Of a stretch of DNA of 64,000 nucleotides, positions 3,052-31,127 are shown in pieces (the stretch's first letter is position 1; each line of letters begins with the position of its first letter). The DNA is from a virus (taxonomy: Duplodnaviria; Heunggongvirae; Uroviricota; Caudoviricetes): the IMG/VR virus record IMGVR_UViG_3300033075_001920; one strand, 5' to 3'. The notes under the pieces are model-generated. The model was not told the DNA's origin, did no database searches, and was given only the letters and a program-made list of their open reading frames with translations. Position numbers and translations under genes: made by a program.

Positions 3052-3300
3052 ATGGATAGTCAACCAACCCAAGAAGGCAGACCCCTTACCTATGGAGAAA
3101 AAGCCGTAGGTCTTTCTTTTAATCCATCAGGAGATCCGGCAGTAAATGAATGTAAAAGCATTTTTGCAAGAGCGATTGATCAGATGAATGATCTAAGAGA
3201 AAAATCCGAAAGTAATGAGCAGAAGCGCCATTGTTCTATTGCCATTACCGATATGGAGACAGCCCAGATGAGAGCTGTTAAAGCTATTACCTGGAAATAA
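3052..3300 (+). CDS. hypothetical protein
   Basis: 82-aa soluble ORF followed by an intrinsic terminator. Confidence 0.5.
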   Translation: MDSQPTQEGRPLTYGEKAVGLSFNPSGDPAVNECKSIFARAIDQMNDLREKSESNEQKRHCSIAITDMETAQMRAVKAITWK

Positions 3301-5859: not shown

Positions 5860-7002
5860 ATGACCATAGAAAAGAATGACGAATCCGTTTTTTCCCCGTT
5901 TGAAGGAAATGTAAGAGACAGATCATACACCAAACCTGCGATATCACAGAATGAAGTAGGCGGCGAAATTCCTGAGCCTGTATATACCCCTCCTACTATG
6001 GGGCAGATGCAGGAAGCCATGAACGATAAGGCTTTTGAAAATAATCTCGGGGGATTTGGTGCAAAACCTCAATCAAATACCACTTCCAGCACTTCCGGCT
6101 CAGGAAATTCTTCTTCTGGTGGTGATAAAGTAACACCTCCGCCAAAAGCACCTATGCAACCGGTCAATCCGGTCATGAACGAACTGGAGGATACTGAAAA
6201 AAGAAAAGCGGCTCAGATAGCAGTTGAAGCTGCTATGGACGGATACAAAGGTTTGAATAAGTTTGGAAACAGTAAAATCATGTTCAACCTTCCGAAGATT
6301 TCCAAGATGGTTAAGGAAGGAAAGGTAGACCCGCGTATTATTCTCGAACCGGAACCCGGTATAAAGATGCCACTTTTGGAATATATGAAGACATATAACG
6401 CCAATGTGGATGGTATAATCAGTGTTAGCCCTGAATTTGAAAAAAAGGTAAAACCGATTATGACCAGGGTGTTTATGAAAAGGGGAATTGGTATGTCTGA
6501 TGAAGGGCTTTTAGCTTATTACTTCGGAATGGATATTCTGACCAAAACCAAATTGCTCTACGACCTGAATAAGACACTCAAAGATCTGACAGGTGATATT
6601 ATTGAAAGGTCAGCTATTACATTAGCCGGCTCTCCAATCGCGTCCCAGACTTCATATCAACCCGACGTTACTGAGCCTCAGGAAAAAAGAAGTCATCCCG
6701 AGCCTGACCCAACGCCCTCAGGTGGAAACAACTCAGGTGGAGAAAGAGAATTTATAGAACCCCAACAGGAAATAAGCCGTACTTTTGAAGAACCGGAAGA
6801 AAAATCTGCTGTAAAAGAGGAAGTTCATCACGAACCAATTTCTGTCAGCACTGTAAAGGAAAGAACAGGTTCCGAAAAAGTAGAGCAGCCAGTTATTGTT
6901 ACTTCGAAAAGAAAAAGCAAACCTCCTCAATTTGGCAATCCTGAAATATTGAGTGATATGGAACGTGTGGCTAAAAAGGGTACAACAAGAAAAAGAAGAT
7001 AA
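5860..7002 (+). CDS. low-complexity virion/assembly protein with basic C-terminus
   Basis: 380 aa with S/G/T/P/E-rich disordered ends and a C-terminal KKGTTRKRR. It lies immediately upstream of, and is translationally coupled to, the packaging ATPase (TAATG). Confidence 0.5.
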   Translation: MTIEKNDESVFSPFEGNVRDRSYTKPAISQNEVGGEIPEPVYTPPTMGQMQEAMNDKAFENNLGGFGAKPQSNTTSSTSGSGNSSSGGDKVTPPPKAPMQPVNPVMNELEDTEKRKAAQIAVEAAMDGYKGLNKFGNSKIMFNLPKISKMVKEGKVDPRIILEPEPGIKMPLLEYMKTYNANVDGIISVSPEFEKKVKPIMTRVFMKRGIGMSDEGLLAYYFGMDILTKTKLLYDLNKTLKDLTGDIIERSAITLAGSPIASQTSYQPDVTEPQEKRSHPEPDPTPSGGNNSGGEREFIEPQQEISRTFEEPEEKSAVKEEVHHEPISVSTVKERTGSEKVEQPVIVTSKRKSKPPQFGNPEILSDMERVAKKGTTRKRR

Positions 7003-7850
7003 TGGAAGAACTACGCGAACCATTATTAGGTGTGGCCATTGGCAAAAAAGGGGTTGGAAAATCATATCAGACCGATAAACTGATATCGGGCTATATTGCC
7101 GGTAATCCATCTAAGGGTATAAAGGGAAGAAAAGTATTAATCATAGATCCCAACGATGAGTATACCCATATCAAGGCTATTGCATTACAGGATGTAGTTC
7201 GCTTCTCGGTCAGCCCGGTAGTGGAAGCCAGAAGAATTCGTCCATATATCATTGATAAAAATGGTAACACCGAAAGAATGCGATTGGAAGATCTATCCAA
7301 TACTTTAAATATTGTAATGGATGCTTTTTCCGGAGGTCTTCTATTAGTAGAGGATATTAACCGCTATGTGGGAGATAATATGAAGCAGGACGTTATGGGT
7401 GCCATAGCAACCAACCGTCATAGAGATCAGGATATTATTTTGCATTATCAAGGTATTGGACGTATCGGTCCTAAGGTATGGCAGAATTTAAACTGGCTCA
7501 GGTTCCATAAAATCACAGAACCGGTTCACCGCCATAAAAACAAATTCATAGACAAATATGAATTATTGCGTATTACCGAGATTATGGTCAATAATGAATT
7601 CTTCAATGACAATATCCGCTATTTTATTTATGTCGATTGCGACAATATGAAACTGCAGGGAAATATTGATTCTGAAAAATTCAATAAGGCTTGTCTGGAA
7701 TACCTGGAAGAAAACTATTCAACTACCATAGGTCCGATGCTTAGAAGCAGGGGAGATGGTGGCAAAAAAAGATACACTTATGAATCCGCGCTTGCCCATG
7801 AGAAGGACAGGCTTACTAAGTTGTATTTAAAATCAAAGTCTAAAGATTGA
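7002..7850 (+). CDS. FtsK/HerA-superfamily genome-packaging ATPase (A32/PRD1-P9-like)
   Basis: Walker A GKKGVGKS, LIIDPNDEY, Walker B LLLVED, then NRHRDQDIILHYQ (RH-x9-Q signature). Small size of 282 aa. Confidence 0.6.
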   Translation: MEELREPLLGVAIGKKGVGKSYQTDKLISGYIAGNPSKGIKGRKVLIIDPNDEYTHIKAIALQDVVRFSVSPVVEARRIRPYIIDKNGNTERMRLEDLSNTLNIVMDAFSGGLLLVEDINRYVGDNMKQDVMGAIATNRHRDQDIILHYQGIGRIGPKVWQNLNWLRFHKITEPVHRHKNKFIDKYELLRITEIMVNNEFFNDNIRYFIYVDCDNMKLQGNIDSEKFNKACLEYLEENYSTTIGPMLRSRGDGGKKRYTYESALAHEKDRLTKLYLKSKSKD

Positions 7851-7946
7851 ATAATAGCAAGGCTTTTGCCTCTTTATTCAAATAAAATCAACTTTCAACT
7901 TGCTTTTACATCGTGTTGGTAATGAGTTATTACCGAGGATGTGTTA

Positions 7947-7954
7947 TATTTTTG
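7947..7954 (+). promoter_or_regulatory. Bacteroidota-type -7 promoter box (TATTTTTG)
   Basis: TAnnTTTG match in the gap after the ATPase gene. It implies a ~90-nt leader before the ATG at 8050. Confidence 0.45.
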
Positions 7955-8049
7955 AATTCGATTATCAGTCTGTGCTGAAAATCACCCAAGACTCATCGAG
8001 AAAACGACAACAAAAATTTTTACAACACATTAAAAACACCCTTCAAAAA

Positions 8050-8769
8050 ATGAGACAAAACAATAACATCCGTCAATACTTGGATGAAGCGTCTAACAAC
8101 GCACATCAGAAGTTTTTGAACGCGGACGGTTTCTTTGATGACGATCTGAGCTTCACAGCCGGAGAAGACTTCATGAATACCGACGGCAACGCGGTCAGTA
8201 ATGGACCTGCTCCAACCTCTCAGCCATACATCATCATTGTAACAAACACAGGTTCTGCTGTTTCGAACTTTGATTTCCTTGGCTCTAACCAGTACTTGTT
8301 CGATACTGCGACATCAGCATGGACTACCGCCGGTAATCTGGTGGTAAGTAACATCACGATTTCCAGTGGTATCCCGAACATCACGTACCGTGAGGCTCTT
8401 CAACAATTCCAGCAATCGCCGTTCAGTGTGGGTCTTACCTACATTCAGTCGTCTTCTGCTTCTCAGTTGTTACAGGCCATTTCCGTAAACACCAGAGACG
8501 CTAATGGTAACTTGGCGCAAAAACCATTGATTCCAACCATTGACCCGTATCAGCAACAAACTACAGTGCTGGCCATGAAATTTGGCTACCGCATTGATGG
8601 TTTCACAAAGCTGATCATCAACTCAGTGCTGGCTTCAACAACAGTAACCTTCAACATCTACCCATCAGACAACATCAACATCGCTCGTGGTCTGACTGGA
8701 AAACAGGTGTCAAGAGAGTTCGCTTCTCCTGGTATCGTGAAATCACAGACAGTACGTCTGGTTCAGTAA
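8050..8769 (+). CDS. candidate major capsid protein (small beta-rich, jelly-roll-sized)
   Basis: 239 aa from the ATG at 8050; the track ORF opens at 7900 inside the promoter/leader. Beta-strand-like S/T/N/I/V-rich body. It follows the ATPase and is bracketed by its own promoter and the strongest terminator in the window. Function is inferred from context only. Confidence 0.4.
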   Translation: MRQNNNIRQYLDEASNNAHQKFLNADGFFDDDLSFTAGEDFMNTDGNAVSNGPAPTSQPYIIIVTNTGSAVSNFDFLGSNQYLFDTATSAWTTAGNLVVSNITISSGIPNITYREALQQFQQSPFSVGLTYIQSSSASQLLQAISVNTRDANGNLAQKPLIPTIDPYQQQTTVLAMKFGYRIDGFTKLIINSVLASTTVTFNIYPSDNINIARGLTGKQVSREFASPGIVKSQTVRLVQ

Positions 8770-8795
8770 CCAAACCACCCAACACAAAATTCCAA

Positions 8796-8836
8796 AACGG
8801 GGCTGAATGCTGTCTAAGCTCAGCTCCGTTTTTTTT
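8796..8836 (+). terminator. rho-independent terminator
   Basis: AACGGGGCTGA (8796-8806) pairs with TCAGCTCCGTT (8820-8830) over 11 bp with one G-U pair, followed by T8. Confidence 0.8.
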
Positions 8837-8850
8837 AAAACAAAAATCAC

Positions 8851-9288
8851 ATGAGCATGTATGACTATATAGCCAGGAGAGATCCAAGAGGAGCAGTAAA
8901 AGTTCTTTCTGATTTCGGCTATCGTGTTACAGAACCAAGAACAATGGGAAACAACCTTCGCCTTTTGGTTCAAAAAGAAGGTCAACCGGCTCTGATTGCT
9001 ATTTTAGGATTACATCCGGACAAGGATGTAATTTTAGAAGCTTTCGGAGAAGAACAATCCACCCCGCAGGAAAAACCATGCGGATGCAAAGGTTGTTCAG
9101 AAAACAAAAGTTTCGTTAATGCCGATGGAAGCAAGGGTTTAACCTTAAATGAGCTTCTCCCAACCATGAATGCAAATATGCAGGCAAATAACGACGCTAA
9201 TAAACTCGCATCAACCAATAATGCCCTGATCATAGCAGGCGCATTGTTGTTTTCAACCCTCATATTCGTCAACATCAAAAACAAATAA
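8851..9288 (+). CDS. C-terminally anchored membrane protein with FVNADG motif
   Basis: 145 aa with KSFVNADGSKGLTL and the C-terminal helix ALIIAGALLFSTLIFV. Confidence 0.6.
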   Translation: MSMYDYIARRDPRGAVKVLSDFGYRVTEPRTMGNNLRLLVQKEGQPALIAILGLHPDKDVILEAFGEEQSTPQEKPCGCKGCSENKSFVNADGSKGLTLNELLPTMNANMQANNDANKLASTNNALIIAGALLFSTLIFVNIKNK

Positions 9289-9293
9289 CGACA

Positions 9294-9902
9294 ATGGCAA
9301 CATTAAAACCCGAAGATAAACTTTTTACCGCGATGGCTTATACCATCGATAAAAAGCCTAAGGAAACATTGGCTGTAATCAGAAGAAATGGCATATTGCT
9401 TCCTTCCAATGCCAGCCGAAAAGACATCCAGGGAGCTGTTGCTTCCCTTTCCATGAGAAGTAAACCTTTCTGGAAGGATTTTTCGCTTTTAGTTCAAAAG
9501 ACAGGCGAAGAAAATTTCAAAGGATTTGTCCATGCTGACGGAACCCAAGGCTTGAACGATAGTGTAAAGGACAGTAAGAGTAAAGAAAAGAAGGACTATG
9601 CCGACTCTACCTTAGGGAAGGTATTTACTCCAGACTTTATTCAAAATATCCTTGGAACCGGAGTTCAGGTATGGGCTAACAAGCAAAACTCCAAGGCCGG
9701 TGTATCAGGTGTCAATAATGACATCAATTCCGGAAGGAGCAATTACTCCAATGAAGTATCCGGTTCTTCCGGAGATGGTACAGGCAATCCTCCACCTTCA
9801 AAAGGAATCGGGACTACCGGTATCATTTTGATTTCAGTGGGCGCTATTGCATTGATAGGCACAGTGGTCTATTTTGCAATGAAGAGTAAAAAAGGAAAAT
9901 GA
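9294..9902 (+). CDS. C-terminally anchored membrane protein with FVHADG motif
   Basis: 202 aa with GFVHADGTQGLN and the C-terminal helix GIILISVGAIALIGTVVYFAM. Confidence 0.6.
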   Translation: MATLKPEDKLFTAMAYTIDKKPKETLAVIRRNGILLPSNASRKDIQGAVASLSMRSKPFWKDFSLLVQKTGEENFKGFVHADGTQGLNDSVKDSKSKEKKDYADSTLGKVFTPDFIQNILGTGVQVWANKQNSKAGVSGVNNDINSGRSNYSNEVSGSSGDGTGNPPPSKGIGTTGIILISVGAIALIGTVVYFAMKSKKGK

Positions 9903-10141
9903 GTGAGGAAAATAAATATCAAGCTGCATTAGCAAAAGTCAGGAGAGAAAAAACCAACCTTTTAACAGATCAGTCAGGTGAAACGATGAATCTGGTAAAG
10001 GGAAGTGCTTTTGGACTTTTAGCTGGAGCCGGATATGGATTTTTCAAAAAGAAAAACGTATACGTCTGTGCCGTTTTAGGGGCGGTAATAGGCGGAGTGA
10101 TTAACGGAATTGTAATCCCCTATGCAAGTGAGAATATATGA
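9899..10141 (+). CDS. small glycine-zipper membrane protein
   Basis: 80 aa with GSAFGLLAGAGYGFF and VCAVLGAVIGGVINGIVI. ATGA coupling at both ends. Confidence 0.55.
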   Translation: MSEENKYQAALAKVRREKTNLLTDQSGETMNLVKGSAFGLLAGAGYGFFKKKNVYVCAVLGAVIGGVINGIVIPYASENI

Positions 10142-10386
10142 GTAAAGCTGAAAAAATAACACTTGTCTGTATTGCCGTTGGAGCACTGGCTCTTATTGGC
10201 TTGTACGGCAAAAAGATTTCGAGCTATTCATCATCAGACCCTGATGCACCGGTAGGCGACGAAACAGATTTTAATGCAGATGGAAGTCAGTTTAATTACA
10301 ATGCACATGGAAGTAAATTTTCAGATCGCCTGCAACAAAGACAAGTAAAAACCAAAAAGAAACTAACCTTAAATAACCTGTTATGA
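10138..10386 (+). CDS. N-terminally anchored membrane protein with FNADG motif
   Basis: 82 aa with helix ITLVCIAVGALALIGLYG, then DFNADGSQFNYNAHGSKF. Confidence 0.55.
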   Translation: MSKAEKITLVCIAVGALALIGLYGKKISSYSSSDPDAPVGDETDFNADGSQFNYNAHGSKFSDRLQQRQVKTKKKLTLNNLL

Positions 10387-10490
10387 ACAAAACAACCAAA
10401 ATCGTATTTACCATTGCCTTAGTTGGCATTGCAGCATTTTTAATATTCAAAAAACCGGCAGTTGTAGATCCGCCAAAAGAAGTCAAGTAA
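10383..10490 (+). CDS. micro-ORF, single-helix membrane peptide (35 aa)
   Basis: Not in the track. MNKTTKIVFTIALVGIAAFLIFKKPAVVDPPKEVK. Its ATG overlaps the previous TGA and its stop lies 1 nt before the next ATG. Confidence 0.45.
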   Translation: MNKTTKIVFTIALVGIAAFLIFKKPAVVDPPKEVK

Positions 10491-10491
10491 T

Positions 10492-11019
10492 ATGAAATCA
10501 AAAACCCTCATAAAGATTGCAGGAGCCGGATTGCTTGTTTATTTGATTTTCAAATCTTCAAAAAAGTCTGAAGCTCCGAAGGAAACTCCTAAATCTTCCG
10601 GTGGGGGTGGTGGAGGCGGTATGGCATCCAGCCCGATAATTCCTATTTATCCATCCTTTGGTGTTCCTTCAACAACAATAAATACTGTTGTTGGACCAAA
10701 TACCGGAGGCACCCTGTTTAATCCAAATCCTAATTTAATTACTCAGAAGGAAACAACAGGTACCAAGGCTGAAACCACAAAAACCGGAGATAACCAGAAC
10801 ACTACCTATAAAACCCAGGGAGAAGTAACAGGCGGTGGTATTACAGGCGGAGGCACAGGTCAAGGTACCGGATACACGACATCCGGAGGTTCTGGCAGTA
10901 ATGTTTTGACCAAGGATGGAGCAGGCTCCGGAACTAATACAGGAGGCGGACTGGTAGTAAACATGGATGGATTTTCCAAACCAAAAAAAGGCTTACATTT
11001 AGATCATTTCAGAAAATGA
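10492..11019 (+). CDS. N-terminally anchored Gly/Thr-rich membrane protein
   Basis: 175 aa with helix IKIAGAGLLVYLIF, a GGGGGGG tract, G/T-rich repeats and VVNMDGFSKPKKGLHL near the C-terminus. Confidence 0.55.
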   Translation: MKSKTLIKIAGAGLLVYLIFKSSKKSEAPKETPKSSGGGGGGGMASSPIIPIYPSFGVPSTTINTVVGPNTGGTLFNPNPNLITQKETTGTKAETTKTGDNQNTTYKTQGEVTGGGITGGGTGQGTGYTTSGGSGSNVLTKDGAGSGTNTGGGLVVNMDGFSKPKKGLHLDHFRK

Positions 11020-11342
11020 ATAAAACAATTAAAACAGGACTAATGGTGGTAGGTGGCATTGCGGTAGTAATGTTTGCTGCAGGATTCATGGGTAAAAGAA
11101 AAGCTGCTGAAACAGCTTCACCAACCCCGAGCAAACCGGAAGAAAGACCTTCCGATAATGCAAAAGATACGACCACGGCCAATTCGTATGACCCTACGAA
11201 ATTTGGATACAATCCGGGAGCAAAACCTCCGGACATTAAAATAAGTAGTGGCCCTATTCCAACTGAAGTAAATCCGGATTCGAAAACAGTCTTTACTGCT
11301 TTTGATGGTGGGTTAACACTGTCAAAAATACCAAGACGATGA
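11016..11342 (+). CDS. N-terminally anchored membrane protein
   Basis: 108 aa with helix GLMVVGGIAVVMFAAGF and C-terminal FTAFDGGLTLSK. Confidence 0.55.
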   Translation: MNKTIKTGLMVVGGIAVVMFAAGFMGKRKAAETASPTPSKPEERPSDNAKDTTTANSYDPTKFGYNPGAKPPDIKISSGPIPTEVNPDSKTVFTAFDGGLTLSKIPRR

Positions 11343-11662
11343 AAAAGATATTATACATCATAGTGCCAATTGGTCTTGCAGCTGCAGGATTTTTGGTGTA
11401 TAAGAAGTTTTCATCTTCCGGCTCTACCGATGCAGGACCGGTTGAAACTACTCCGGAATTAAAAGATCCGGCTCAAACCCCGTCGGCTCCAAAATTCGAT
11501 ACAGCCAAGGTACCGGCCGTAAACAGCGATAGCAATATTGCAAAAAGCGGAACAGGAAGCTGGATGGCTCCATCAGGTGGCGCAAGCGGCGTGGTTGCAA
11601 ACTTTTCAGGAACAGAAAAAAAAGGATTGTACATAAATGATATCGGCAAATCAGGAATATAA
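11339..11662 (+). CDS. N-terminally anchored membrane protein
   Basis: 107 aa with helix ILYIIVPIGLAAAGFLVY and C-terminal VVANFSGTEKKGLYIN. Confidence 0.55.
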   Translation: MKKILYIIVPIGLAAAGFLVYKKFSSSGSTDAGPVETTPELKDPAQTPSAPKFDTAKVPAVNSDSNIAKSGTGSWMAPSGGASGVVANFSGTEKKGLYINDIGKSGI

Positions 11663-11909
11663 GCTCTCAGGATCAACTTTGCCTTTCGCCCAGTGGCTTG
11701 AAAGGGAAAAAACAAAAGGCAGATTCATTCCCAACAAGGGAGCGACAGAGGAATTCATGAATTTTGCAGGAGCGGAAAAATATCCATCTCCGGATGGAAG
11801 TGAACCAATTCCTGCAGCAAACTACGTGGTTCCAAACCTGCTTAGAACAGCTGCTTTGATTGGTGTTGTTTACATAGTTTATAGAGTATACAAAAATGCC
11901 CAAAAATAA
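11637..11909 (+). CDS. C-terminally anchored membrane protein
   Basis: 90 aa with EEFMNFAGAEK and the C-terminal helix LLRTAALIGVVYIVY. Confidence 0.5.
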   Translation: MISANQEYKLSGSTLPFAQWLEREKTKGRFIPNKGATEEFMNFAGAEKYPSPDGSEPIPAANYVVPNLLRTAALIGVVYIVYRVYKNAQK

Positions 11910-12153
11910 GGTTGTAAAATATGCGCTCATTACACTTGGACTTATAGTATTATATGTCAACAGAGCTATTTTCAACCCTGTAAAATTGCCATTGAATGCA
12001 GATGCCGGTGCCAAAGGAGAAGATGCTAACGTAGCCGATCCCGAAAACGCCAAGAGTGATAACCAGACAGCAATTGACCGTGCATTACTCAAAATCAAGA
12101 CAGGTTCTGTAAAAGTAAATCCAACATCGAAGGAGGCGAGCCAGAGCCTATGA
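11896..12153 (+). CDS. N-terminally anchored membrane protein
   Basis: 85 aa with helix VVKYALITLGLIVLYV, then LPLNADAGAKGE. Confidence 0.5.
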   Translation: MPKNKVVKYALITLGLIVLYVNRAIFNPVKLPLNADAGAKGEDANVADPENAKSDNQTAIDRALLKIKTGSVKVNPTSKEASQSL

Positions 12154-12944
12154 AGTATAGAGTAACGACTAACAACGCACCGATTCGTCTGGAAATAAAA
12201 GTTAAAACATCAAAACCCGAAACGCTGTGTGTATTGGTCTATGATGAAAAGAATCCGGAAGGTACTGTATTTACAAACCGGTGGAAAACAATCAATGGAG
12301 AGGAAACATTTTCCGTCCGTCTTCCATTGAGTCCGGCAACTGCCATTGTGGAGGTTTATAACAAAGCACTTGGCCGTGGAATAAAAAGGGAAAATGAAAC
12401 TTCGTTCTCTATAGAATCAGTTGAAAAGAAAGCACTTGAGCGCAAACTTGCACCAAGCGATATTGCCAATGCCGATATAAGGTCCTTTGTTGACTTTGCG
12501 TGTGCAGTGGCATATAACCTTGGCACAATGGAGCCGGATAAGGCTTACCAAAGTGATGACGGCAAATTCTTCATTAAACTCTCCGGCAGAATGCTGGATA
12601 AACAGGGAAATGAAGTAACCACCCCGGCAAGGATTAACCGCCATACAGGTGTAATTCAGGTATCTAAAAAGCAGATGCTTAAAATGACTGTTCCAATGCG
12701 TTTTGCAATCTTAATGCATGAATTCAGCCATTATTATCTGAATGAAAAGATTGACGATGAGATGGAAGCAGACTTAAACGGCCTGCTGATTTATCTCGGA
12801 TTGGGATTCCCGAGAATAGAAGCATATCAGGCTTTTCTTGAAACCTTCAAGAACCGCCCGAGCGAACTAAATAAAGACCGGTATGATATTATAAATAAAT
12901 TCATTACCGATTTTGAAAACATAGGAATAGTGATCAACAAATGA
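12150..12944 (+). CDS. putative zinc metallopeptidase (HExxH)
   Basis: 264 aa containing FAILMHEFSHYYLNE (HExxH) with a downstream E/D-rich segment. Embedded in the membrane-protein run. Confidence 0.5.
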   Translation: MKYRVTTNNAPIRLEIKVKTSKPETLCVLVYDEKNPEGTVFTNRWKTINGEETFSVRLPLSPATAIVEVYNKALGRGIKRENETSFSIESVEKKALERKLAPSDIANADIRSFVDFACAVAYNLGTMEPDKAYQSDDGKFFIKLSGRMLDKQGNEVTTPARINRHTGVIQVSKKQMLKMTVPMRFAILMHEFSHYYLNEKIDDEMEADLNGLLIYLGLGFPRIEAYQAFLETFKNRPSELNKDRYDIINKFITDFENIGIVINK

Positions 12945-13081
12945 CAAAGAAAATAATTATCATATCGCTTTTGTCAGCCGGGTTAATAGCACTTGGAATC
13001 CATTATGTATCCAAAGATAAAAAGATGCGTATGGGCTCAAAAGAAGCTAATCAGGCGCTGGAAGGTATGAAAATGTATTAA
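12941..13081 (+). CDS. micro-ORF, single-helix membrane peptide (46 aa)
   Basis: Not in the track. MTKKIIIISLLSAGLIALGIHYVSKDKK... ATGA overlap with the previous gene. Confidence 0.45.
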   Translation: MTKKIIIISLLSAGLIALGIHYVSKDKKMRMGSKEANQALEGMKMY

Positions 13082-13084
13082 CAG

Positions 13085-13936
13085 ATGGCAGACCAGTATG
13101 GATATCGTGCAGTAATGATTAACCAGGCTAATCCGGGTTATCCGGCCGGTGCTGTGGCTATCATTAATTTTCTTAAGGATAAATACCGTAAGGAAATAGA
13201 TGCAGCTGCAGACAGGTGGAAAGTTCCGCCACCCATTCTGTATTCGTTCTTTGGAGTTGAATCAGGAAGGGGAGGTAACGATTTGGATTCTTTTGATAAG
13301 CGCACAGTTGGAGGCGTAACAGTTCCCAACACATATGCGCTATGTCAGACCAATTCGATTGGAATTAATGGAGCAATCAAATCCTGTCTGGCAGGCGATT
13401 GCACCCTTGGTCAGATCTATCCGGTTTATGATGCCTTTCCGATAGCGTTTAAGATTGTAAAGAATCTTCCTCCAAAGGCAGATTTCTGGAAAGATGAGTA
13501 CAAGACCAAGAGAAATGAGAAGGCCAGTGATTATTTTGAACTCAGTGATGCTGCCAGAGCTTTTGAAAAAGCAAAGGGAAACATTAAGTCGTATTGGGAT
13601 GCCGGCGCTAAAAAATTAAAATCAGATCCGGGCTTCTCTACCAATATTGGAGCAATACTTTTGAGCAAATATCTCTTAGAGGATTTATCAAAGGTAAAAG
13701 AGGAGGAAATTGATGGAAAGAAAGTAAAGATGGCAAGGCTCGACTGGGTAATTACCAAGTACAATGCCGGTCCGAATGCTTTCAAAAACATGGAGGAGAA
13801 AAAAAATGACAAGGTACAAGCTGATACCACAGTGTTTATTACGATTGTTCCCAGCTATACCAAGTCGTATATTATAAAATTGGTAGGCAAGGATGGTCTA
13901 CTGGATGTACAAAAAAGAGGACTTGTAAAAGTGTAA
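13085..13936 (+). CDS. lytic transglycosylase (SLT domain) protein
   Basis: FFGVESGRGG (catalytic E-S), ALCQT and ITKYNAGPNAF match SLT motifs by eye. Confidence 0.65.
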   Translation: MADQYGYRAVMINQANPGYPAGAVAIINFLKDKYRKEIDAAADRWKVPPPILYSFFGVESGRGGNDLDSFDKRTVGGVTVPNTYALCQTNSIGINGAIKSCLAGDCTLGQIYPVYDAFPIAFKIVKNLPPKADFWKDEYKTKRNEKASDYFELSDAARAFEKAKGNIKSYWDAGAKKLKSDPGFSTNIGAILLSKYLLEDLSKVKEEEIDGKKVKMARLDWVITKYNAGPNAFKNMEEKKNDKVQADTTVFITIVPSYTKSYIIKLVGKDGLLDVQKRGLVKV

Positions 13937-13937
13937 T

Positions 13938-14381
13938 ATGGCAGTTAACACATGGAATATCGCACCGGATTATGATGAATGGGGAGTTGATTCTTCCTGG
14001 ACAGCAGCCGATTGGATTCAGTGGCATAAGCTGCTTAAGGAAAAATTTGGCAAAGACAAAGCAAAAATTGCCTGGGAATATGCCTATGCGAAAAATGGTG
14101 CTTTTGCCAAGGCTTGGGATTACCGAGTGTTTAATTCAGGTTTCCGCCAGTATGTTCAGGATGAAAACCTTGATCCGTATGTCAATGCCGGGTTATTCGA
14201 TCCTCTTTTGAAAGGATACGCAACCGTATCGGATGTATTTGATTCTGTAACGGATGGTATATCTGGAGTATTCGGAGGAAGCAAGACAGGAAAAACCGTA
14301 GTTACGGTTATACTTATTGCCGGTATTTCGTTTGCGGTTTTCAAAGGAGTTCAGGCATTTAAAATGTTAAAATCAGAGTGA
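13938..14381 (+). CDS. Trp-rich protein with C-terminal membrane anchor
   Basis: 147 aa. The C-terminal helix is TVVTVILIAGISFAVF. Confidence 0.55.
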   Translation: MAVNTWNIAPDYDEWGVDSSWTAADWIQWHKLLKEKFGKDKAKIAWEYAYAKNGAFAKAWDYRVFNSGFRQYVQDENLDPYVNAGLFDPLLKGYATVSDVFDSVTDGISGVFGGSKTGKTVVTVILIAGISFAVFKGVQAFKMLKSE

Positions 14382-14545
14382 TGACAGAGAGTAAAAAAAC
14401 CATATTGATTGTAATCTCCACTGTGCTGATAAGCGGTACCATTATCGGTATGGCGATACATAAAGTGCGTAAGGAGAAGATGAATCTGGTTAATGATAAG
14501 GATTTTCAGGAATTAATGAAAAAAATTGACAATGCCAAAAAGTAA
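14381..14545 (+). CDS. micro-ORF, single-helix membrane peptide (54 aa)
   Basis: Not in the track. MTESKKTILIVISTVLISGTIIGMAIHKVRKEK... TGATG overlap with the previous gene. Confidence 0.45.
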   Translation: MTESKKTILIVISTVLISGTIIGMAIHKVRKEKMNLVNDKDFQELMKKIDNAKK

Positions 14546-15023
14546 AGTATACATATTTTCAGGTCTGGCCATTTCGCTCTCGATTGTAGCTTACTTTTTT
14601 ATAACCAAAAAGAAAAAGTTACCGCCAAGTGAAATACCAAAAGTGGATGCTTCCGGTGAAGAAATTACCAAGGAGCAAACAGTCATTCCTGAATCTTTGG
14701 CAGCTCTGATGAAGCTATCGGCAGCTAATGCGACCAAAGCGCTTAGGGGTAAGGATGTATATACTAAACTGAATGATGCCAACGCGCGGGAAGTTGCCTG
14801 GGTAAACAATGGGGTTATAAATAATCTCATAGGTACCATTAAGACCAAGGGCACTTATGTCGGAAAAATACTGGATGTGGAAGAGGATGGCAATGGAGCA
14901 AGAAACGGAGACAGAATATACAAGTGGGTAATGATTGCCCCAACAAGCAAGGAAGCGCGTAAAGACCTGGGAACCGATAGACCAATTTATTTAAGAGAAG
15001 ACGTAATTAATTTGACAAAATGA
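14532..15023 (+). CDS. N-terminally anchored membrane protein
   Basis: The track start at 14526 is TTG; the ATG at 14532 (MPKSKVYIFSGLAISLSIVAYFFI) is preferred. Confidence 0.55.
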   Translation: MPKSKVYIFSGLAISLSIVAYFFITKKKKLPPSEIPKVDASGEEITKEQTVIPESLAALMKLSAANATKALRGKDVYTKLNDANAREVAWVNNGVINNLIGTIKTKGTYVGKILDVEEDGNGARNGDRIYKWVMIAPTSKEARKDLGTDRPIYLREDVINLTK

Positions 15024-15649
15024 ACAGAACATTAAAATACAGCCTTTATTTTGGCGTAGCAGCATTATCAACACTAATTCTTGTCAAGTTGCTAAGGAAA
15101 AAAGAAGAGGAGCCTGTAATCGATTTACCTTCACCTTCCGGCGGAGTGACTTTGAATAACATTCCAAAGTCTATAAACAGATCTGCTATTTTAGTTTTTG
15201 GTTCAAAAGGAGCGGAAGTAAAAGAACTGCAGAAGATACTGGGAGTTACTGCCGATGGCATATTTGGGAAAGATACTCAGGCGGCTTTGGCTGCAAAAAC
15301 CGGTCAAACTTCAGCATCGCTTAATACCGTAAGTAGAATCATGGCTGAGTATGCCGCTAAGAAAGCGCTTGAAGCTAAACTCAGTGGTATTAAATCCACT
15401 TTCCCGGTTGGCAAACCGGTTACGGCTGCGGCAACATTCAGGGCGTTTGCTTATCAATTCCGGAATGGGGATTGGTACCCAACGGATGCTAATGGCAAAT
15501 CACTTCCGAGCAAAGAATTTTTGAAAACAGCCGATATGGGTAAGGTATTCGGATATGGAAAAGCAGATCCGAATCTTATCATTATTGAACTGCCTCAGAC
15601 AATAGAGGGATGGAGATATGCAGGTGTAAAATCGACTTGGATTAAGTAA
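15020..15649 (+). CDS. membrane-anchored peptidoglycan-binding domain protein
   Basis: N-terminal helix YSLYFGVAALSTLILV. GSKGAEVKELQKILGVTADGIFGKDTQAAL matches the PG_binding_1 repeat by eye. Confidence 0.6.
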   Translation: MNRTLKYSLYFGVAALSTLILVKLLRKKEEEPVIDLPSPSGGVTLNNIPKSINRSAILVFGSKGAEVKELQKILGVTADGIFGKDTQAALAAKTGQTSASLNTVSRIMAEYAAKKALEAKLSGIKSTFPVGKPVTAAATFRAFAYQFRNGDWYPTDANGKSLPSKEFLKTADMGKVFGYGKADPNLIIIELPQTIEGWRYAGVKSTWIK

Positions 15650-16146
15650 TGGATATTGATGTATTCTATCGCAATGGTGACGCCAGTTTTGGTGTAGATG
15701 GAAATAAAAATTTCGTAGAGGAATTTTCATGGCCAATGATAAATGCGTCAGGTCCGGAGCAGGAAGCACTTTCTTCTTACAGAAAGCAGCTTACCCCAAA
15801 GATGAAATCCGATTGTGCGGCTTTGGCTACTCTTCTATCGCAGGTTAAAAGCGAAATAGAAATAGCGACTGCAGGTAAAATTGCAGCTAAGTCATCGGAG
15901 AAAAAGAAGATTGAACAAAAGATCGCCGGACTTGAAAAGGCGAAAAACGAGATACAGGCAGCATACAATTCCGGAAAATGCGATGCTAAAATAGCGCAGA
16001 AAGACCAGGATGCTCTTTATGCTGCATTAGGTGTAGGAAAAGGTCCGGATGTGGCAAAAGTAGGAACCTACCTTATTGTAGGCGGAATCGGAGTGGTGGC
16101 GTTGGCTGTAGGTGTAATATTGTATAGAAAATTTAGAAAAAAATGA
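15649..16146 (+). CDS. coiled-coil protein with C-terminal membrane anchor
   Basis: 165 aa. The C-terminal helix is TYLIVGGIGVVALAVGVILY. Confidence 0.55.
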   Translation: MDIDVFYRNGDASFGVDGNKNFVEEFSWPMINASGPEQEALSSYRKQLTPKMKSDCAALATLLSQVKSEIEIATAGKIAAKSSEKKKIEQKIAGLEKAKNEIQAAYNSGKCDAKIAQKDQDALYAALGVGKGPDVAKVGTYLIVGGIGVVALAVGVILYRKFRKK

Positions 16147-16817
16147 GCGACATTTCAAAACAACTTGGACTAAGGGTAATTCCGGAAATTAAAAACACAA
16201 AGACCATTGATCAGGAATTGGGTATTGGTGTTAATAAGGAAGGTATTGTAAAGGTTTCTCAGCCTAATGAATTCAATTTTTTAGGTATAGGGGAAGGTAA
16301 ACAAAAAGCCAAAAAAACCTATGGAAAGATAGGTCAGCCGAATGCGACACTTATCCAGGAAGCCCGTAACAGGATTTTAGCAGAATTCCCTTTTGAAAAA
16401 TCAAGAGCTGCCAGTTCTACAGAAATCGGAGCAATGATCAGTAAAGCTGATCAGGAGATGGACCATGCTTTAAATCAGATGGGAGAATCCAGAAAAAGCA
16501 TAGGAAAATTCATCGGTACCGATTTTAAAGGCAATGGAACATGCGGAGATAACATAGAGTGCGTGAATAAAGCGTTTGCATCCTATCAACAATGGGATAA
16601 ACGCAGAACTGAGCTGGTAAAAGACCAGATAGATGCCGTGGCAAGAGAAGAAAAAGCAGCCGAAAAAGCCGCATCTGATTCAGCCCCTTCGCCTAAAAGT
16701 AAGCCGGGAGCTGGTAATATCACGGCAAACATAAAAAACAACTGGTTGTGGTGGACTCTTGGTTCAGCGGCAGCCATATCAATTGTAGTATTTATTTACA
16801 AAAAACGAAATGGATAA
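16143..16817 (+). CDS. protein with C-terminal membrane anchor
   Basis: 224 aa. The C-terminal helix is WLWWTLGSAAAISIVVFIY. Confidence 0.55.
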   Translation: MSDISKQLGLRVIPEIKNTKTIDQELGIGVNKEGIVKVSQPNEFNFLGIGEGKQKAKKTYGKIGQPNATLIQEARNRILAEFPFEKSRAASSTEIGAMISKADQEMDHALNQMGESRKSIGKFIGTDFKGNGTCGDNIECVNKAFASYQQWDKRRTELVKDQIDAVAREEKAAEKAASDSAPSPKSKPGAGNITANIKNNWLWWTLGSAAAISIVVFIYKKRNG

Positions 16818-17079
16818 TTTTACAGAATTTTTTAACGACACAGGGTCATCCATTGACAGTTTTCAAGTCAATCAGACCATTGAGAAAGCAAAAACATTTT
16901 CTCAAAAGCTTCAAGACCTAATCGGTCCGGAAGCCGGTAAATTCATTGCTCAGGAACAAGCAAGGGCAGACAGGCTCAATGCCAAGGAAGCCATTGTTCC
17001 GAATGTGCCAAACAGCGCATTGTATTACATTGCTGCAGCTGGAGCACTTTATCTGGGATACAGACTGTTATTTAAATGA
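16810..17079 (+). CDS. small protein with C-terminal membrane anchor
   Basis: 89 aa. The C-terminal helix is ALYYIAAAGALYLGYRLLF. Confidence 0.5.
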   Translation: MDNFTEFFNDTGSSIDSFQVNQTIEKAKTFSQKLQDLIGPEAGKFIAQEQARADRLNAKEAIVPNVPNSALYYIAAAGALYLGYRLLFK

Positions 17080-17591
17080 AAAAAAGCACCATCATATTGC
17101 TAACCGGAGGCGCTGTGGTAGCGGGGCTTATGGGCAGGTATGTGTACAGAAATATTGTACTTGCAAAAGACTACGATTTCAAGTTCAATGGTTTCATACC
17201 TACCGGAATTCGTCTTACAGGAGATGATCCTAAAATTTCAGGCAAGGCATCGCTGCAGTTTATCAATAAGAGCGATATCAAAGCTGTCATTAAGGATATC
17301 AATATACAGGTGTTCAGTAAAAATGTTCGCCTGGGAGCAATTGAAAAGCCGGAAGTAGTTTCTATAGCACCAAAAGGATTTACAACATTCAATTTTGATA
17401 TTTCCTTTAATCCAAAATCGGTTGTAGATAATTGGCGCATTTTAACATCAACAATAATCAACGATAAGAACATACCTATGGATTTTGTTGGTCAGTTAAA
17501 AGTGGATACTGCTTTTGGATTTATAAAGATTCCGATTAAGTATTCCACAACGGGTAAAGATTTGTATGCGCTTTATCAACAGTACTACTAA
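17076..17591 (+). CDS. N-terminally anchored beta-sandwich (LEA_2/NDR1-like) protein
   Basis: 171 aa with helix IILLTGGAVVAGLMG. The alternating beta pattern (ASLQFINKSDIKAVIKDINIQVFSKNVRLG) resembles LEA_2 domains. Confidence 0.4.
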   Translation: MKKSTIILLTGGAVVAGLMGRYVYRNIVLAKDYDFKFNGFIPTGIRLTGDDPKISGKASLQFINKSDIKAVIKDINIQVFSKNVRLGAIEKPEVVSIAPKGFTTFNFDISFNPKSVVDNWRILTSTIINDKNIPMDFVGQLKVDTAFGFIKIPIKYSTTGKDLYALYQQYY

Positions 17592-17599
17592 TAAAGAAC

Positions 17600-17607
17600 T
17601 ATTTTTG
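17600..17607 (+). promoter_or_regulatory. Bacteroidota-type -7 promoter box (TATTTTTG)
   Basis: TAnnTTTG match 18 nt upstream of the ATG at 17626. Confidence 0.45.
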
Positions 17608-30242: not shown

Positions 30243-30691
30243 TGGCATCAAAGAAGCCCAAAAGACGAACTGACAAGACAGTTCCCCAAAAGCAGCAAGA
30301 AGGGGATAAAAAAGGTACGTCCGTGGGTAAGGGTAACTCATCAACAGCCCAGACAAGTTCTCAGGGAGCATTCTTTTTTCAATTTGACAATGACCGGCCT
30401 GAGTACATTAAAGGTCAGAAAGAAGGTCAAAATCTCTCTATACGTGTTCTTCCAAGTATTGATGGTGGCTTTAAAGCGCAGTGTAACGATAAGACATTTG
30501 AACTGTATTACGATGCACTTATTGGATTTTATTGTTTCCGGTTCAACAGACGATTCACAACAATATTTCCATTAATTTCACATGCTCCTGTTGATCTGTT
30601 AATTTCCCTTACAAGGGTTTCTTCCTCAATTGCTGTGTTTAATGATTTTGTAGGACATTCCTTTAAAATTTTCTATAAAGAACATGCCTGA
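30242..30691 (+). CDS. hypothetical basic protein
   Basis: The track ORF opens at 30191. The ATG at 30242 (MASKKPKRRTDK) abuts the previous stop (TAATG). Confidence 0.45.
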   Translation: MASKKPKRRTDKTVPQKQQEGDKKGTSVGKGNSSTAQTSSQGAFFFQFDNDRPEYIKGQKEGQNLSIRVLPSIDGGFKAQCNDKTFELYYDALIGFYCFRFNRRFTTIFPLISHAPVDLLISLTRVSSSIAVFNDFVGHSFKIFYKEHA

Positions 30692-31127
30692 TTACATACC
30701 AACTTTAACTACTTCATCGACTCCTTTTATAGAAGTAACTTCAGCAGGTGGTGTCAGCTACACTGAAATACAGAACTCTATTGGAACTTATGTTTACCAG
30801 ATATTGAACTTATACCAGAGAGCCAGTAGTATAAGTCAGATAATGCAGAACATCCTTTTGAGAAAATACGACAAATTTGGTAATCGTCAGCTCAGATTGA
30901 TGGAAATGAACATTGATCCGTTTCAGTTTCAGGCTTCACTTAATAAAAACATGCGGAATCTTGACTACCGTTTTGACAACAATAACAATATGTACATGAC
31001 GGTTGAAGGCAATACATTGATAAACATTGTTATAGATATGATAGAATTGAACCGGGCTGATATGCTCGGTCCCAATGATACATTTAAGGAGATTGAATTT
31101 TTGAAGGATTATAATATTGATTTTTAA
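30684..31127 (+). CDS. hypothetical protein
   Basis: 147-aa ORF. Confidence 0.45.
   Translation: MPDYIPTLTTSSTPFIEVTSAGGVSYTEIQNSIGTYVYQILNLYQRASSISQIMQNILLRKYDKFGNRQLRLMEMNIDPFQFQASLNKNMRNLDYRFDNNNNMYMTVEGNTLINIVIDMIELNRADMLGPNDTFKEIEFLKDYNIDF

What the first reader, a model, noticed from the sequence alone, without database searches (positions are those of the whole stretch)
8050..12153. Recurrent F-x-N-A-D-G-type motif links the capsid-candidate N-terminus to a run of single-pass membrane proteins
The translations show these instances: capsid candidate KFLNADGFF and DFMNTDGNA, both before the beta-rich body. 8851 has SFVNADGSKGLTL, 9294 has GFVHADGTQGLN, and 10138 has DFNADGSQF plus YNAHGSKF. 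10492 has VVNMDGFSKPKKGLHL, 11016 has FTAFDGGLTL, 11339 has VANFSGTEKKGLYI, 11637 has FMNFAGAEK, and 11896 has PLNADAGAKGE. Weaker variants occur in 5860 (YNANVDG), 13938 (YVNAGLF) and 15649 (FGVDGNKNF). The consensus is hydrophobic-x-N-[AF]-[DS]-G, often followed 2-4 residues later by G-L. The proteins are otherwise dissimilar apart from one membrane helix. A short shared motif on many virion components could be a maturation-cleavage site, by analogy with adenovirus protease sites on multiple virion proteins. The only peptidase-like gene in the module is the HExxH protein at 12150. A shared docking or assembly signal is the alternative.
Basis: seen in the sequence. Interest (0 to 1): 0.75.

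Follow-up and report, generated by a model that had tools for sequence, protein, structure and literature searches.

The report
Shared peptide tag on capsid and membrane proteins
A six-residue peptide motif recurs on the flexible N-terminal arm of a putative jelly-roll capsid protein and on many small membrane proteins of an uncultured, poorly annotated group of Bacteroidota viruses. It most likely acts as a common address or docking tag that ties the viral membrane proteins to the capsid, though a role as a protease cutting site is not excluded.

Summary
Every quoted instance is in the sequence. The motif [FYW]-x-[N/S/G]-[A/F/M/V]-[D/N/S/E]-G occurs 6 times in 1,350 aa of the module and 2 times in 18,935 aa elsewhere; shuffles predict 0.11. 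Codons differ between copies, so selection acts on the protein.

A scoring matrix built only from the N-terminal arms of 45 other, distant capsid homologues picks out the window's small membrane proteins (about 18-fold enrichment, p = 8.6e-5). In 13-18 related viral contigs the motif column is kept while the flanks drift. It occurs in 10 sequence families. Profile comparison aligns little between the families tested beyond the motif and the membrane helix.

Carriers are the arm of a single-jelly-roll capsid candidate (84% of 106 diverse homologues, often 2-3 copies) and tail-anchored small membrane proteins (55 of 121, against 14 of 168 N-anchored ones). The HExxH protein is a confident M48-like zincin and was present in every related locus long enough to check.

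Tandem copies 8 residues apart, and 41-42 aa proteins that are only a membrane helix plus the motif, favour a docking or tethering signal over a pure cleavage site. Cleavage remains possible. No described precedent was found.

The parts
7002..7850 (+). FtsK/HerA-superfamily ATPase, the putative genome-packaging ATPase, immediately upstream of the jelly-roll gene
   Evidence: Pfam PF01935 DUF87/HerA, 26.4 bits against a cutoff of 23.2. Weak PHROG terminase hit. Conserved in 14/14 loci.
8050..8769 (+). Single-jelly-roll protein, the capsid candidate (239 aa from ATG 8050). It has an N-terminal helix, then two motif copies, then the beta-barrel.
8113..8130 (+). Motif copy 1 on the capsid arm (FLNADG)
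   Evidence: The first copy starts at residue 19 (IQR 18-20) in 106 diverse homologues.
8170..8187 (+). Motif copy 2 on the capsid arm (FMNTDG)
8851..9288 (+). Tail-anchored membrane protein (145 aa, TM 124-142) with FVNADG at nt 9112-9129
   Evidence: The motif column is kept in 14/14 orthologues (SF[VML][NG]ADG, Y/FLNA[VA]G) while the flanks drift.
9294..9902 (+). Tail-anchored membrane protein (202 aa) with FVHADG at nt 9525-9542
   Evidence: Motif of at least 8 bits in 11/14 orthologues.
10138..10386 (+). N-anchored small membrane protein (82 aa) with DFNADG (10267-10284) and NYNAHG (10294-10311)
   Evidence: No orthologue was found in the 13 related loci.
10492..11019 (+). N-anchored protein with a Gly/Ser/Thr-rich linker and a C-terminal tail, VVNMDG (10954-10971) followed by KKGLHLDHF
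   Evidence: The family is present in 14 loci. Its C-terminal consensus is Phi-x-[PN]-[FM]-[DS]-G followed by L-x-L-[DE]-x-[LIF].
11016..11342 (+). N-anchored small membrane protein with C-terminal FTAFDG (11292-11309) followed by GLTL
11339..11662 (+). N-anchored small membrane protein with VANFSG (11594-11611) followed by KKGLYI
11637..11909 (+). Tail-anchored protein (90 aa) with FMNFAG (11754-11771). It is a paralogue of 13938-14381.
   Evidence: Orthologues carry EEF[VNY]NADG or EFQNFDG at the same position (11 of 14 loci at 8 bits or more).
11896..12153 (+). N-anchored small protein with PLNADAG (11989-12009)
   Evidence: Orthologues have PL[ND]AD.G in 8 of 11 members; the column is lost in the L009, L012 and L013 members.
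12150..12944 (+). N-terminal beta-sandwich plus M48-like zincin domain, HEFSH at nt 12717-12731. This is the candidate peptidase or motif receptor.
15649..16146 (+). Tail-anchored protein with weak copies (MINASG at 15736-15753; FYRNGD/FGVDG near the N-terminus)
   Evidence: Its family carries strong copies in relatives, such as DYSYANG and DYSYADG (10 of 12 loci).

Best explanation
The motif is a short linear docking peptide with consensus [F/Y/W]-x-[N/S/G]-[A/F/M/V]-[D/N/S/E]-G. On the capsid protein it sits directly after the N-terminal helix, in a region the model leaves unstructured. It is carried on two kinds of protein. One is the N-terminal arm of the jelly-roll capsid protein. The other is the cytoplasm-facing parts of virus-encoded small membrane proteins, mostly tail-anchored ones.

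Proposed mechanism (inferred): the membrane proteins insert into the host cytoplasmic membrane. Their motif-bearing segments and the capsid arms then meet at the capsid-membrane interface, where one shared receptor site binds the motif. The receptor is most simply a pocket at the base of the jelly-roll capsomer. Alternatively it is the beta-sandwich of the 12150 protein or another core module protein. This binding tethers the membrane patch to the growing shell and sorts the viral membrane proteins into the particle. Multiple copies would add avidity. Later trimming by the M48-like zincin would be compatible with this, as with T4 capsid-targeting sequences, but is not required.

Shown: the motif, its enrichment, its conservation, its carriers and its positions. 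Inferred: membrane topology, the identity of the receptor, and virion membership of every protein named here.
For: Reality and selection of the motif:
- It is enriched in the window.
- An independently trained PSSM finds it in the small proteins.
- Excluding the capsid gene, the modules of 13 related loci hold 24 strict hits, against 0.88 expected from shuffles, at 11 times the density of the rest of those loci.
- The motif column is conserved within families while the flanks drift.

It is a linear motif, not a domain:
- hhalign between the families compared aligns little beyond 11-13 columns at the motif and the membrane helices.
- Ten families carry it.

Carriers point to one face of the membrane:
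- 55 of 121 tail-anchored proteins carry it, against 14 of 168 N-anchored ones (odds ratio 9.2, p = 3e-13).
- The three L017 mini-proteins read MKK-TM-KPKKNS-xx-F[FY]x[AM]xG, so the positive-inside rule places the motif in the cytoplasm.

Features typical of multivalent docking:
- 44 of 106 diverse capsid arms have 2-3 copies. The first copy is fixed at residue 19, while arm length varies from 22 to 76 aa.
- Some arms carry 8-residue tandem arrays, for example YLSAEGDWSDANGDWTQAEGDWSDADAWTEAAGG.
- The 41-42 aa proteins are only a membrane helix plus the motif, 4-5 residues from the C-terminus.
- The conserved features are an aromatic anchor and a Gly. No catalytic-type side chain is conserved.

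Weak hint: in the AF2 model, residues 26-29 (DGFF) rise above pLDDT 50 and 27-28 are assigned as a strand or beta-bridge, while the rest of the arm is unstructured. The pairing partner could not be read from the summary.
Confidence: 0.45

Rival explanations
1. Maturation cleavage site. The M48-like zincin encoded at 12150-12944 cuts all carriers at the motif during particle maturation. A zincin would most plausibly cut before the hydrophobic A/F/M/V residue, i.e. [N/S/G]|[A/F/M/V]. Cleavage would remove the N-terminal helix of the capsid protein and release soluble domains or short tails from their membrane anchors.
For: - The zincin is a high-confidence fold with an invariant HExxH and downstream acidic residues.
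- It is embedded in the module in all 14 loci of the set plus L017 and L019.
- It has no signal peptide or membrane helix, which would place it in the same compartment as the inferred cytoplasmic motif side.
- The -2 position is always small or hydrophobic (A, F, V, M, L), as expected for the P1' site of a thermolysin-like zincin (general knowledge).
- A second copy often lies just upstream of the first barrel strand (median 23 residues, IQR 10-29), like a propeptide boundary.
- There is precedent for shared short sites on many virion proteins, in adenovirus and T4 (general knowledge).
Against: - No cleavage data exist.
- Tandem copies 8 residues apart and mini-proteins where cutting would remove only 4-5 residues make little sense as substrates.
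- An invariant Gly at P3' plus an aromatic residue at P3 is unusual for M48-type enzymes (general knowledge).
- The zincin's N-terminal domain resembles carbohydrate-binding and receptor-binding modules, and the best viral match, although weak, is to enhancin. This suggests a host-surface role instead.
- Prokaryotic jelly-roll viruses are not known to have maturation proteases (PMC6260650).
Confidence: 0.25
2. Receptor-free structural or interfacial element. The motif is a helix C-cap and turn that positions aromatic and acidic residues at the membrane surface, possibly bridging lipid head groups through Ca2+ or stabilising arm conformations. No dedicated protein partner or protease is involved.
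For: - In the capsid protein the motif directly follows the N-terminal helix (helix 6-21, motif 22-27).
- N, D and G are classic turn and cap residues (general knowledge).
- The capsid arms are rich in D, E, W, F and Y, which are typical interfacial residues.
- Membrane-containing marine phages such as PM2 depend on Ca2+ (general knowledge).
Against: - A generic structural cap would not be about 18-fold enriched in this module relative to the rest of the same proteome.
- The EF-hand or dockerin pattern DxNxDG...E is not met. The position that would need an acidic residue is aromatic, and N and D are replaced by G/S and S/A/N in orthologues.
- The carriers are already membrane-anchored, so they do not need a lipid-binding element.
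Confidence: 0.12
3. No function. The recurrence reflects composition, chance, or inheritance from a duplicated ancestor gene.
For: - 11637 and 13938 fall in one sequence cluster and are paralogues (weak hhalign support).
- By architecture, 10492, 11016 and 11339 may be too. This was not tested.
- Some window instances are weak, for example NYNAHG, FTAFDG and PLNADAG.
- 10138, 11016 and 11339 have no detected orthologues in the 13 related loci.
Against: Shuffles and the rest of the proteome give a far lower density. The motif is kept across capsid homologues down to 26-30% identity. It is shared by families with no other detectable similarity, including a jelly-roll protein and membrane proteins.
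Confidence: 0.03

Closest known systems
Adenovirus protease consensus sites, (M/I/L)XGX-G and (M/I/L)XGG-X, on several virion precursor proteins
   Same: A short, degenerate, Gly-containing motif is shared by several otherwise unrelated proteins of a virus built around a jelly-roll capsid protein and an FtsK/HerA-type ATPase.
   Different: The sequence pattern is different. No adenovirus-type cysteine protease appeared in the proteins scanned, and the only peptidase candidate is an M48-like zincin. Here the motif occurs in tandem arrays and on mini-proteins, and cleavage is unproven. In the published evolutionary model the maturation protease of this virus lineage was acquired in eukaryotic elements (PMC6260650).
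Phage T4 capsid targeting sequences and the gp21 prohead protease sites (general knowledge)
   Same: A short peptide shared by several proteins addresses them to the assembling particle, and can be removed afterwards. This shows that docking and cleavage are not mutually exclusive.
   Different: The T4 signal is strictly N-terminal, binds an internal scaffold core of a tailed phage, and is cut by a serine protease. Here the motif is internal or C-terminal, is carried by membrane proteins and by the capsid arm, and no scaffold or serine protease was identified.
Capsid-membrane linker proteins of PRD1 (P16, P30) and PM2 (P3, P6) (general knowledge)
   Same: Small virus-encoded membrane proteins contact the underside of a jelly-roll capsid and couple shell and membrane.
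   Different: No shared linear motif between capsid arm and membrane proteins has been described for those phages. There is no sequence similarity (no hits in the cultured-phage collection). FLiP, which also infects Bacteroidota, lacks the motif. Genomes here are about 60-130 kb rather than 10-15 kb, and the capsid candidate is a single rather than a double jelly roll.
Eukaryotic endocytic adaptor motifs (DPF/DPW, FxDxF, NPF) that bind beta-sandwich appendage domains (general knowledge)
   Same: Aromatic-plus-acidic/Asn/Gly peptides of 3-6 residues, in disordered regions, often in multiple copies for avidity, recognised by a beta-sandwich platform at a membrane-coat interface.
   Different: This is an analogy of logic only. 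There is no homology, and the receptor here is unknown.
M48 / minigluzincin metallopeptidases (BepA, HtpX, Ste24, projannalysin), as a comparison for the 12150 protein
   Different: No sequence-level family membership. It has a unique N-terminal beta-sandwich. It is soluble, with no membrane helices. Its substrate is unknown.

Membership tests
Adenovirus-type maturation cleavage system | Site consensus (M/I/L)XGX-G or (M/I/L)XGG-X | tested here: not met
   The consensus here is [FYW]-x-[NSG]-[AFMV]-[DNSE]-G. No instance fits the adenovirus pattern.
Adenovirus-type maturation cleavage system | Adenovirus/Ulp1-type cysteine protease encoded by the virus | tested here: inconclusive
   None was found among roughly 50 window proteins scanned against Pfam, PHROGs and NCBIfam. 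Not every ORF was scanned, and only 64 kb of a 132 kb contig was visible.
Adenovirus-type maturation cleavage system | Precursors are cut at the motif in mature virions | not testable with these tools
   This needs virion proteomics. No cultured relative was found.
Zincin metallopeptidase, M48-like / minigluzincin (12150 protein) | Invariant HExxH plus a downstream acidic third ligand | tested here: met
   H190, E191, H194, E204, E206 and D208 are invariant in 34 homologues of 48-63% identity. Which acidic residue is the ligand is not determined.
Zincin metallopeptidase, M48-like / minigluzincin (12150 protein) | Catalytic-domain fold similarity to M48 structures | tested here: met
Zincin metallopeptidase, M48-like / minigluzincin (12150 protein) | Sequence-profile membership (Pfam Peptidase_M48 or similar) | tested here: not met
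   No Pfam, NCBIfam or PDB sequence match.
Jelly-roll capsid plus FtsK/HerA ATPase morphogenetic module of membrane-containing tailless viruses (PRD1-like / sphaerolipovirus-like) | Jelly-roll capsid protein | tested here: inconclusive
Jelly-roll capsid plus FtsK/HerA ATPase morphogenetic module of membrane-containing tailless viruses (PRD1-like / sphaerolipovirus-like) | Adjacent FtsK/HerA-superfamily ATPase of about 250-280 aa | tested here: met
   PF01935 scores above its gathering threshold. The gene is adjacent to the jelly-roll gene in all 14 loci of the set.
Jelly-roll capsid plus FtsK/HerA ATPase morphogenetic module of membrane-containing tailless viruses (PRD1-like / sphaerolipovirus-like) | Cluster of small membrane proteins downstream; no tailed-phage hallmark genes | tested here: met
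   Nine or more single-pass proteins follow. No HK97 capsid, portal or terminase was detected in the 64 kb window. The rest of the contig was not visible.
Asn-dependent autoproteolysis (nodavirus N|A, tetravirus N|F, FlhB/YscU NPTH) | Strictly conserved Asn at the scissile bond | tested here: not met
   Asn is replaced by G, S or H in orthologues, for example SFMGADG, FVHADG and FLSANG.
EF-hand / dockerin Ca2+ loop (DxNxDG...E) | Acidic ligands at loop positions 1 and 12, and conserved positions 3 and 5 | tested here: not met
   The residue two positions before the N/S/G, where loop position 1 would fall, is aromatic in 41 of 45 arms. N and D are often substituted by G/S and S/A/N. There is no conserved acid six residues after the Gly.
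Sortase / exosortase-type C-terminal sorting signal | Motif immediately followed by a TM helix and a basic tail | tested here: not met
   The motif lies 31 to more than 250 residues from the C-terminus in tail-anchored carriers. It also occurs after N-terminal anchors and on the capsid protein, which has no membrane helix.

The most novel reading that the evidence does not exclude
An abundant, uncultured lineage of Bacteroidota viruses (contigs of about 60-130 kb) has a single-jelly-roll capsid protein, an internal membrane and no detectable tailed-phage genes. It uses one six-residue 'capsid address' peptide, carried both by the capsid arm and by tail-anchored membrane proteins, to select and tether its membrane proteome. 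It then processes these tethers with a virion M48-like zincin. That enzyme would be the first maturation protease, and the first shared sorting signal, described for a prokaryotic jelly-roll virus.
Probability: 0.15. Interest if true: 0.85.

Novelty: new variant of a known kind. Interest (0 to 1): 0.62.

Why it matters
How membrane-containing icosahedral viruses pick out their own membrane proteins, and how they couple a lipid vesicle to a protein shell, is poorly understood even for PRD1 and PM2. A single conserved peptide shared by the capsid arm and the membrane proteins gives a concrete, mutable handle on that step. Possible experiments are peptide pull-downs, co-folding, motif swaps and virion N-terminomics.

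The motif also gives a sequence signature for finding virion membrane proteins in metagenomes of a large, unannotated virus group. The capsid family alone has 813 clusters at 50% identity, and every member listed is either unnamed or called 'hypothetical protein'. If the zincin cuts the motif, it would be a new, non-cysteine solution to capsid maturation in jelly-roll viruses.

Tried and rejected
- **DNA-level repeat or regulatory site.** Rejected: codons differ at every position between copies.
- **EF-hand or dockerin Ca2+ loop, Asn-dependent autoproteolysis, sortase-like sorting signal.** Each fails a defining feature.
- **'G-L' second element as part of a general bipartite motif.** Rejected as general (5 of 76 instances against an 8.9% background). 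Retained only as a C-terminal tail seen in many members of the 10492 family.
- **Homology between the carrier proteins.** hhalign aligns short stretches that fall on the motif or the membrane helix in the pairs compared.
- **Same motif in another Bacteroidota membrane phage.** FLiP has none.
- **Cultured relatives.** tblastn of the ATPase and the capsid protein against 50,697 phage records found nothing.
- **Literature.** No paper on a 'NADG motif' and none describing this lineage was found.
- **Co-occurrence test of zincin and motif in distant lineages.** This failed. The alignment was too diverse for a pattern search. Three single-protein scans of viral contigs found nothing. The contigs of distant homologues were too short.
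- **Extending the view of the 132 kb contig beyond the window.** This failed: no exact gene record, or only short Logan contigs.
- **Viral fold search with the zincin model.** It gave only a weak enhancin-like hit and matches to the beta-sandwich alone.

Full report
**Setting.**
The window is phage-like. It encodes DNA methylases, DUF5131, PAPS reductase-like proteins, a muramidase and DUF4942. No HK97 capsid, portal or terminase was detected in about 50 proteins scanned.

Genes 7002-17600 form a co-directional block. It starts with an FtsK/HerA-type ATPase (PF01935 above threshold), followed by a 239-aa beta-rich protein. At least nine small single-pass membrane proteins follow, then an HExxH protein, then further membrane proteins.

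The window's own record is a 132,469-bp JGI contig. Close relatives are IMG/VR viral contigs, five of them 61-85 kb long, plus contigs binned with Sediminibacterium and Flavobacteriales MAGs. The host is therefore probably Bacteroidota, possibly from lakes. No cultured phage has a detectable homologue of the ATPase or the beta-rich protein.

Yes. Every quoted peptide is present. The strict regex [FYLVMIW].N[AFMT][DSA]G hits 6 times in 5 of the 10 module proteins (1,350 aa) and twice in the other 18,935 aa. Composition-preserving shuffles give a mean of 0.11 and never more than 2. An unbiased Gibbs sampler recovers the same motif as its best solution, above all 15 shuffled controls. Codons vary at every position between copies (AAC/AAT, GCG/GCC/GCT/GCA, GAC/GAT, GGT/GGC/GGA), so the signal is at the protein level.

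The regex was defined after seeing the data, so I built an independent model. It is a position matrix from the N-terminal arms of 45 other, diverse homologues of the beta-rich protein (26-56% identical). The window's own sequence and all membrane proteins were excluded. Its six-residue core finds 5 sites of at least 9 bits in the nine small proteins (1,074 aa) and 5 in the remaining 19,063 aa. That is 17.7-fold enrichment, Fisher p = 8.6e-5.

**Conservation.**
Thirteen related viral loci have a capsid-candidate protein 61-69% identical to the window's. Excluding that gene, their modules contain 24 strict hits against 0.88 expected. The density is 11 times that of the rest of the same loci.

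Orthologue alignments show the motif column kept while the flanks drift:
- 8851 family, 14/14 loci: SFVNADG, SFMGADG, NFFGADG, YLNAVG.
- 9294 family, 11/14 loci.
- 11637 family, 11/14 loci: EEF[VNY]NADG, EFQNFDG.
- 11896 family: PL[ND]AD.G in 8 of 11 members.
- 15649 family, 10/12 loci.

In all, ten sequence families carry the motif in two or more loci. In the family pairs compared by profile-profile alignment, the matched stretches are short. They fall on the motif (11-13 columns) or on the membrane helix.

The consensus is [F/Y/W]-x-[N/S/G]-[A/F/M/V]-[D/N/S/E]-G. The aromatic residue and the Gly are the most constrained positions, and no polar side chain is invariant.

**The capsid candidate.**

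The family is very large: 1,559 hits in one search, and 813 clusters at 50% identity in the other. Across 106 diverse representatives, 84% have the motif in the arm. The first copy starts at residue 19 (IQR 18-20), and 44 have two or three copies. The arm between the motif and the first strand (TSQPYI) varies from 22 to 76 residues and is rich in acidic and aromatic residues. Some arms carry 8-residue tandem arrays, such as YLSAEGDWSDANGDWTQAEGDWSDADAWTEAAGG.

**Who else carries it.**
I made a census of small proteins in the window and 17 related loci. The motif (at least 8 bits) occurs in 55 of 121 tail-anchored proteins and in only 14 of 168 N-anchored ones (odds ratio 9.2, p = 3e-13).

In tail-anchored proteins the motif lies in the N-terminal, presumably cytoplasmic, part. 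Three paralogous proteins in L017 (81, 42 and 41 aa) read MKK-TM-KPKKNS-xx-F[FY]x[AM]xG. In the two shortest only 4-5 residues follow the motif. The charge distribution places the motif of these proteins on the cytoplasmic face as well. In the PRD1 assembly model (general knowledge) that face contacts the capsid.

**The HExxH protein.**

The protein is present in all 14 loci of the set, and also in L017 and in L019, whose capsid candidate is 41% identical to the window's. There is no sequence-level family assignment. The beta-sandwich resembles carbohydrate-binding and receptor-binding modules. The best match among viral models is a weak one to baculovirus enhancin. A role at the host surface is therefore as plausible as a maturation role.

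**Interpretation.**
The motif is a selected short linear motif. It is shared by a jelly-roll protein's N-terminal arm and by the probably capsid-facing segments of viral membrane proteins. Two mechanisms fit: a common docking or tether signal, or a common cleavage site.

I favour docking (about 0.45) for four reasons:
- tandem copies at 8-residue spacing;
- proteins that are only a membrane anchor plus the motif;
- the fixed position of copy 1 after the helix, against a hypervariable arm;
- an 'aromatic anchor plus Gly' pattern with no invariant reactive residue.

These are features of multivalent peptide-pocket recognition and are awkward for protease sites.

Cleavage by the 12150 zincin (about 0.25) stays open. 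The enzyme is real and is a core gene of the module. The -2 position is always small or hydrophobic, as a zincin P1' residue would be. A second copy often sits shortly before the first barrel strand. The two mechanisms could also operate in sequence, as with T4 capsid-targeting sequences.

A receptor-free turn or Ca2+/lipid element gets about 0.12, and chance or paralogy about 0.03. The remainder is for roles not considered here.

**Limits.**
- Genes were called with a simple ATG/longest-ORF heuristic, and membrane helices with a hydropathy threshold.
- Related loci are not phylogenetically independent.
- Only 64 kb of the 132 kb contig was visible.
- No complex could be modelled, and no proteomic data exist.
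- The test of whether zincin and motif co-occur in distant lineages failed for lack of long contigs.

**Comparison with known systems.**
The motif does not match adenovirus protease sites, EF-hand or dockerin loops, Asn-autocleavage sites or sortase-type signals; each fails a defining feature. The closest functional analogies are T4 capsid-targeting sequences and the PRD1/PM2 membrane-capsid linker proteins. For neither is a motif shared between capsid arm and membrane proteins described.

In the published evolutionary model, the maturation protease of the jelly-roll virus lineage was acquired in eukaryotic elements (PMC6260650). Full-text searches found nothing on this motif or this lineage. 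I rate the finding a new variant of a known kind, namely a shared virion address or processing signal, in an undescribed virus group.

Noticed in passing
window 30684-31127 (+): A 147-aa protein is a weak paralogue of the jelly-roll capsid candidate. hmmsearch gives E = 5e-6 among the window ORFs, and it shares an IDPFQFQ / IDPYQQQ segment. It has no motif-bearing arm. It could be a second capsid or vertex protein.
   Followed up: partly
L021 9253-9918: A second copy of the jelly-roll gene lies directly upstream of the canonical one. Its N-terminus is replaced by a basic/hydrophobic segment and a C-terminal membrane helix is added, giving a membrane-anchored capsid paralogue. Similar motif-less N-termini occur in P0268, P0283 and P0301.
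   Followed up: partly
L024 656-1939; also P0246, P0291, P0303, P0322: Proteins of 320-427 aa contain two tandem copies of this jelly-roll domain. This could be a double jelly roll that arose by duplication within the family.
   Followed up: no
L028 1082-5055: A distant jelly-roll homologue without the motif sits next to a 1,009-aa protein carrying Topoisom_I and Pep_deformylase Pfam hits. This is a very different gene context from the window.
   Followed up: no
window 3052-3300 (+) (= L032 5338-5586): This 82-aa protein carries a precomputed Pfam hit to PF24729 (Acb2_Tad1_hairpin), the fold of anti-CBASS/Thoeris nucleotide sponges. It is probably an anti-defence gene.
   Followed up: no
window contig and L017 contig: The window's source contig (132,469 bp) and the Sediminibacterium-binned contig (132,486 bp) are almost the same length, yet their capsid proteins are only 61% identical. 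Many other long contigs of the group are about 61-75 kb, with some up to 92 kb or more. True genome size and completeness are unclear.
   Followed up: no
window 10492-11019 and orthologues in 14 loci: A run of 4-9 glycines directly follows the N-terminal membrane helix in every orthologue. A long Ser/Thr/Gly-rich linker and the C-terminal motif tail come after it.
   Followed up: no
window 7900-8049: The public gene call for the capsid candidate (289 aa, TTG start) is about 50 residues longer than all relatives (229-241 aa). ATG 8050 is the likely start.
   Followed up: yes
window 8851-9288 and orthologues; L017 644-772: Cys-rich patches (CGCKGC, CNCGCQ, C-terminal CGCGA) lie next to the motif in several carriers. 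They could be metal or disulfide sites.
   Followed up: no
window 40532-41467 (-): An SPFH/Band 7 (stomatin/flotillin-like) membrane-scaffold protein is encoded in the non-structural half of the window. This is notable for a virus that appears to remodel host membrane.
   Followed up: no
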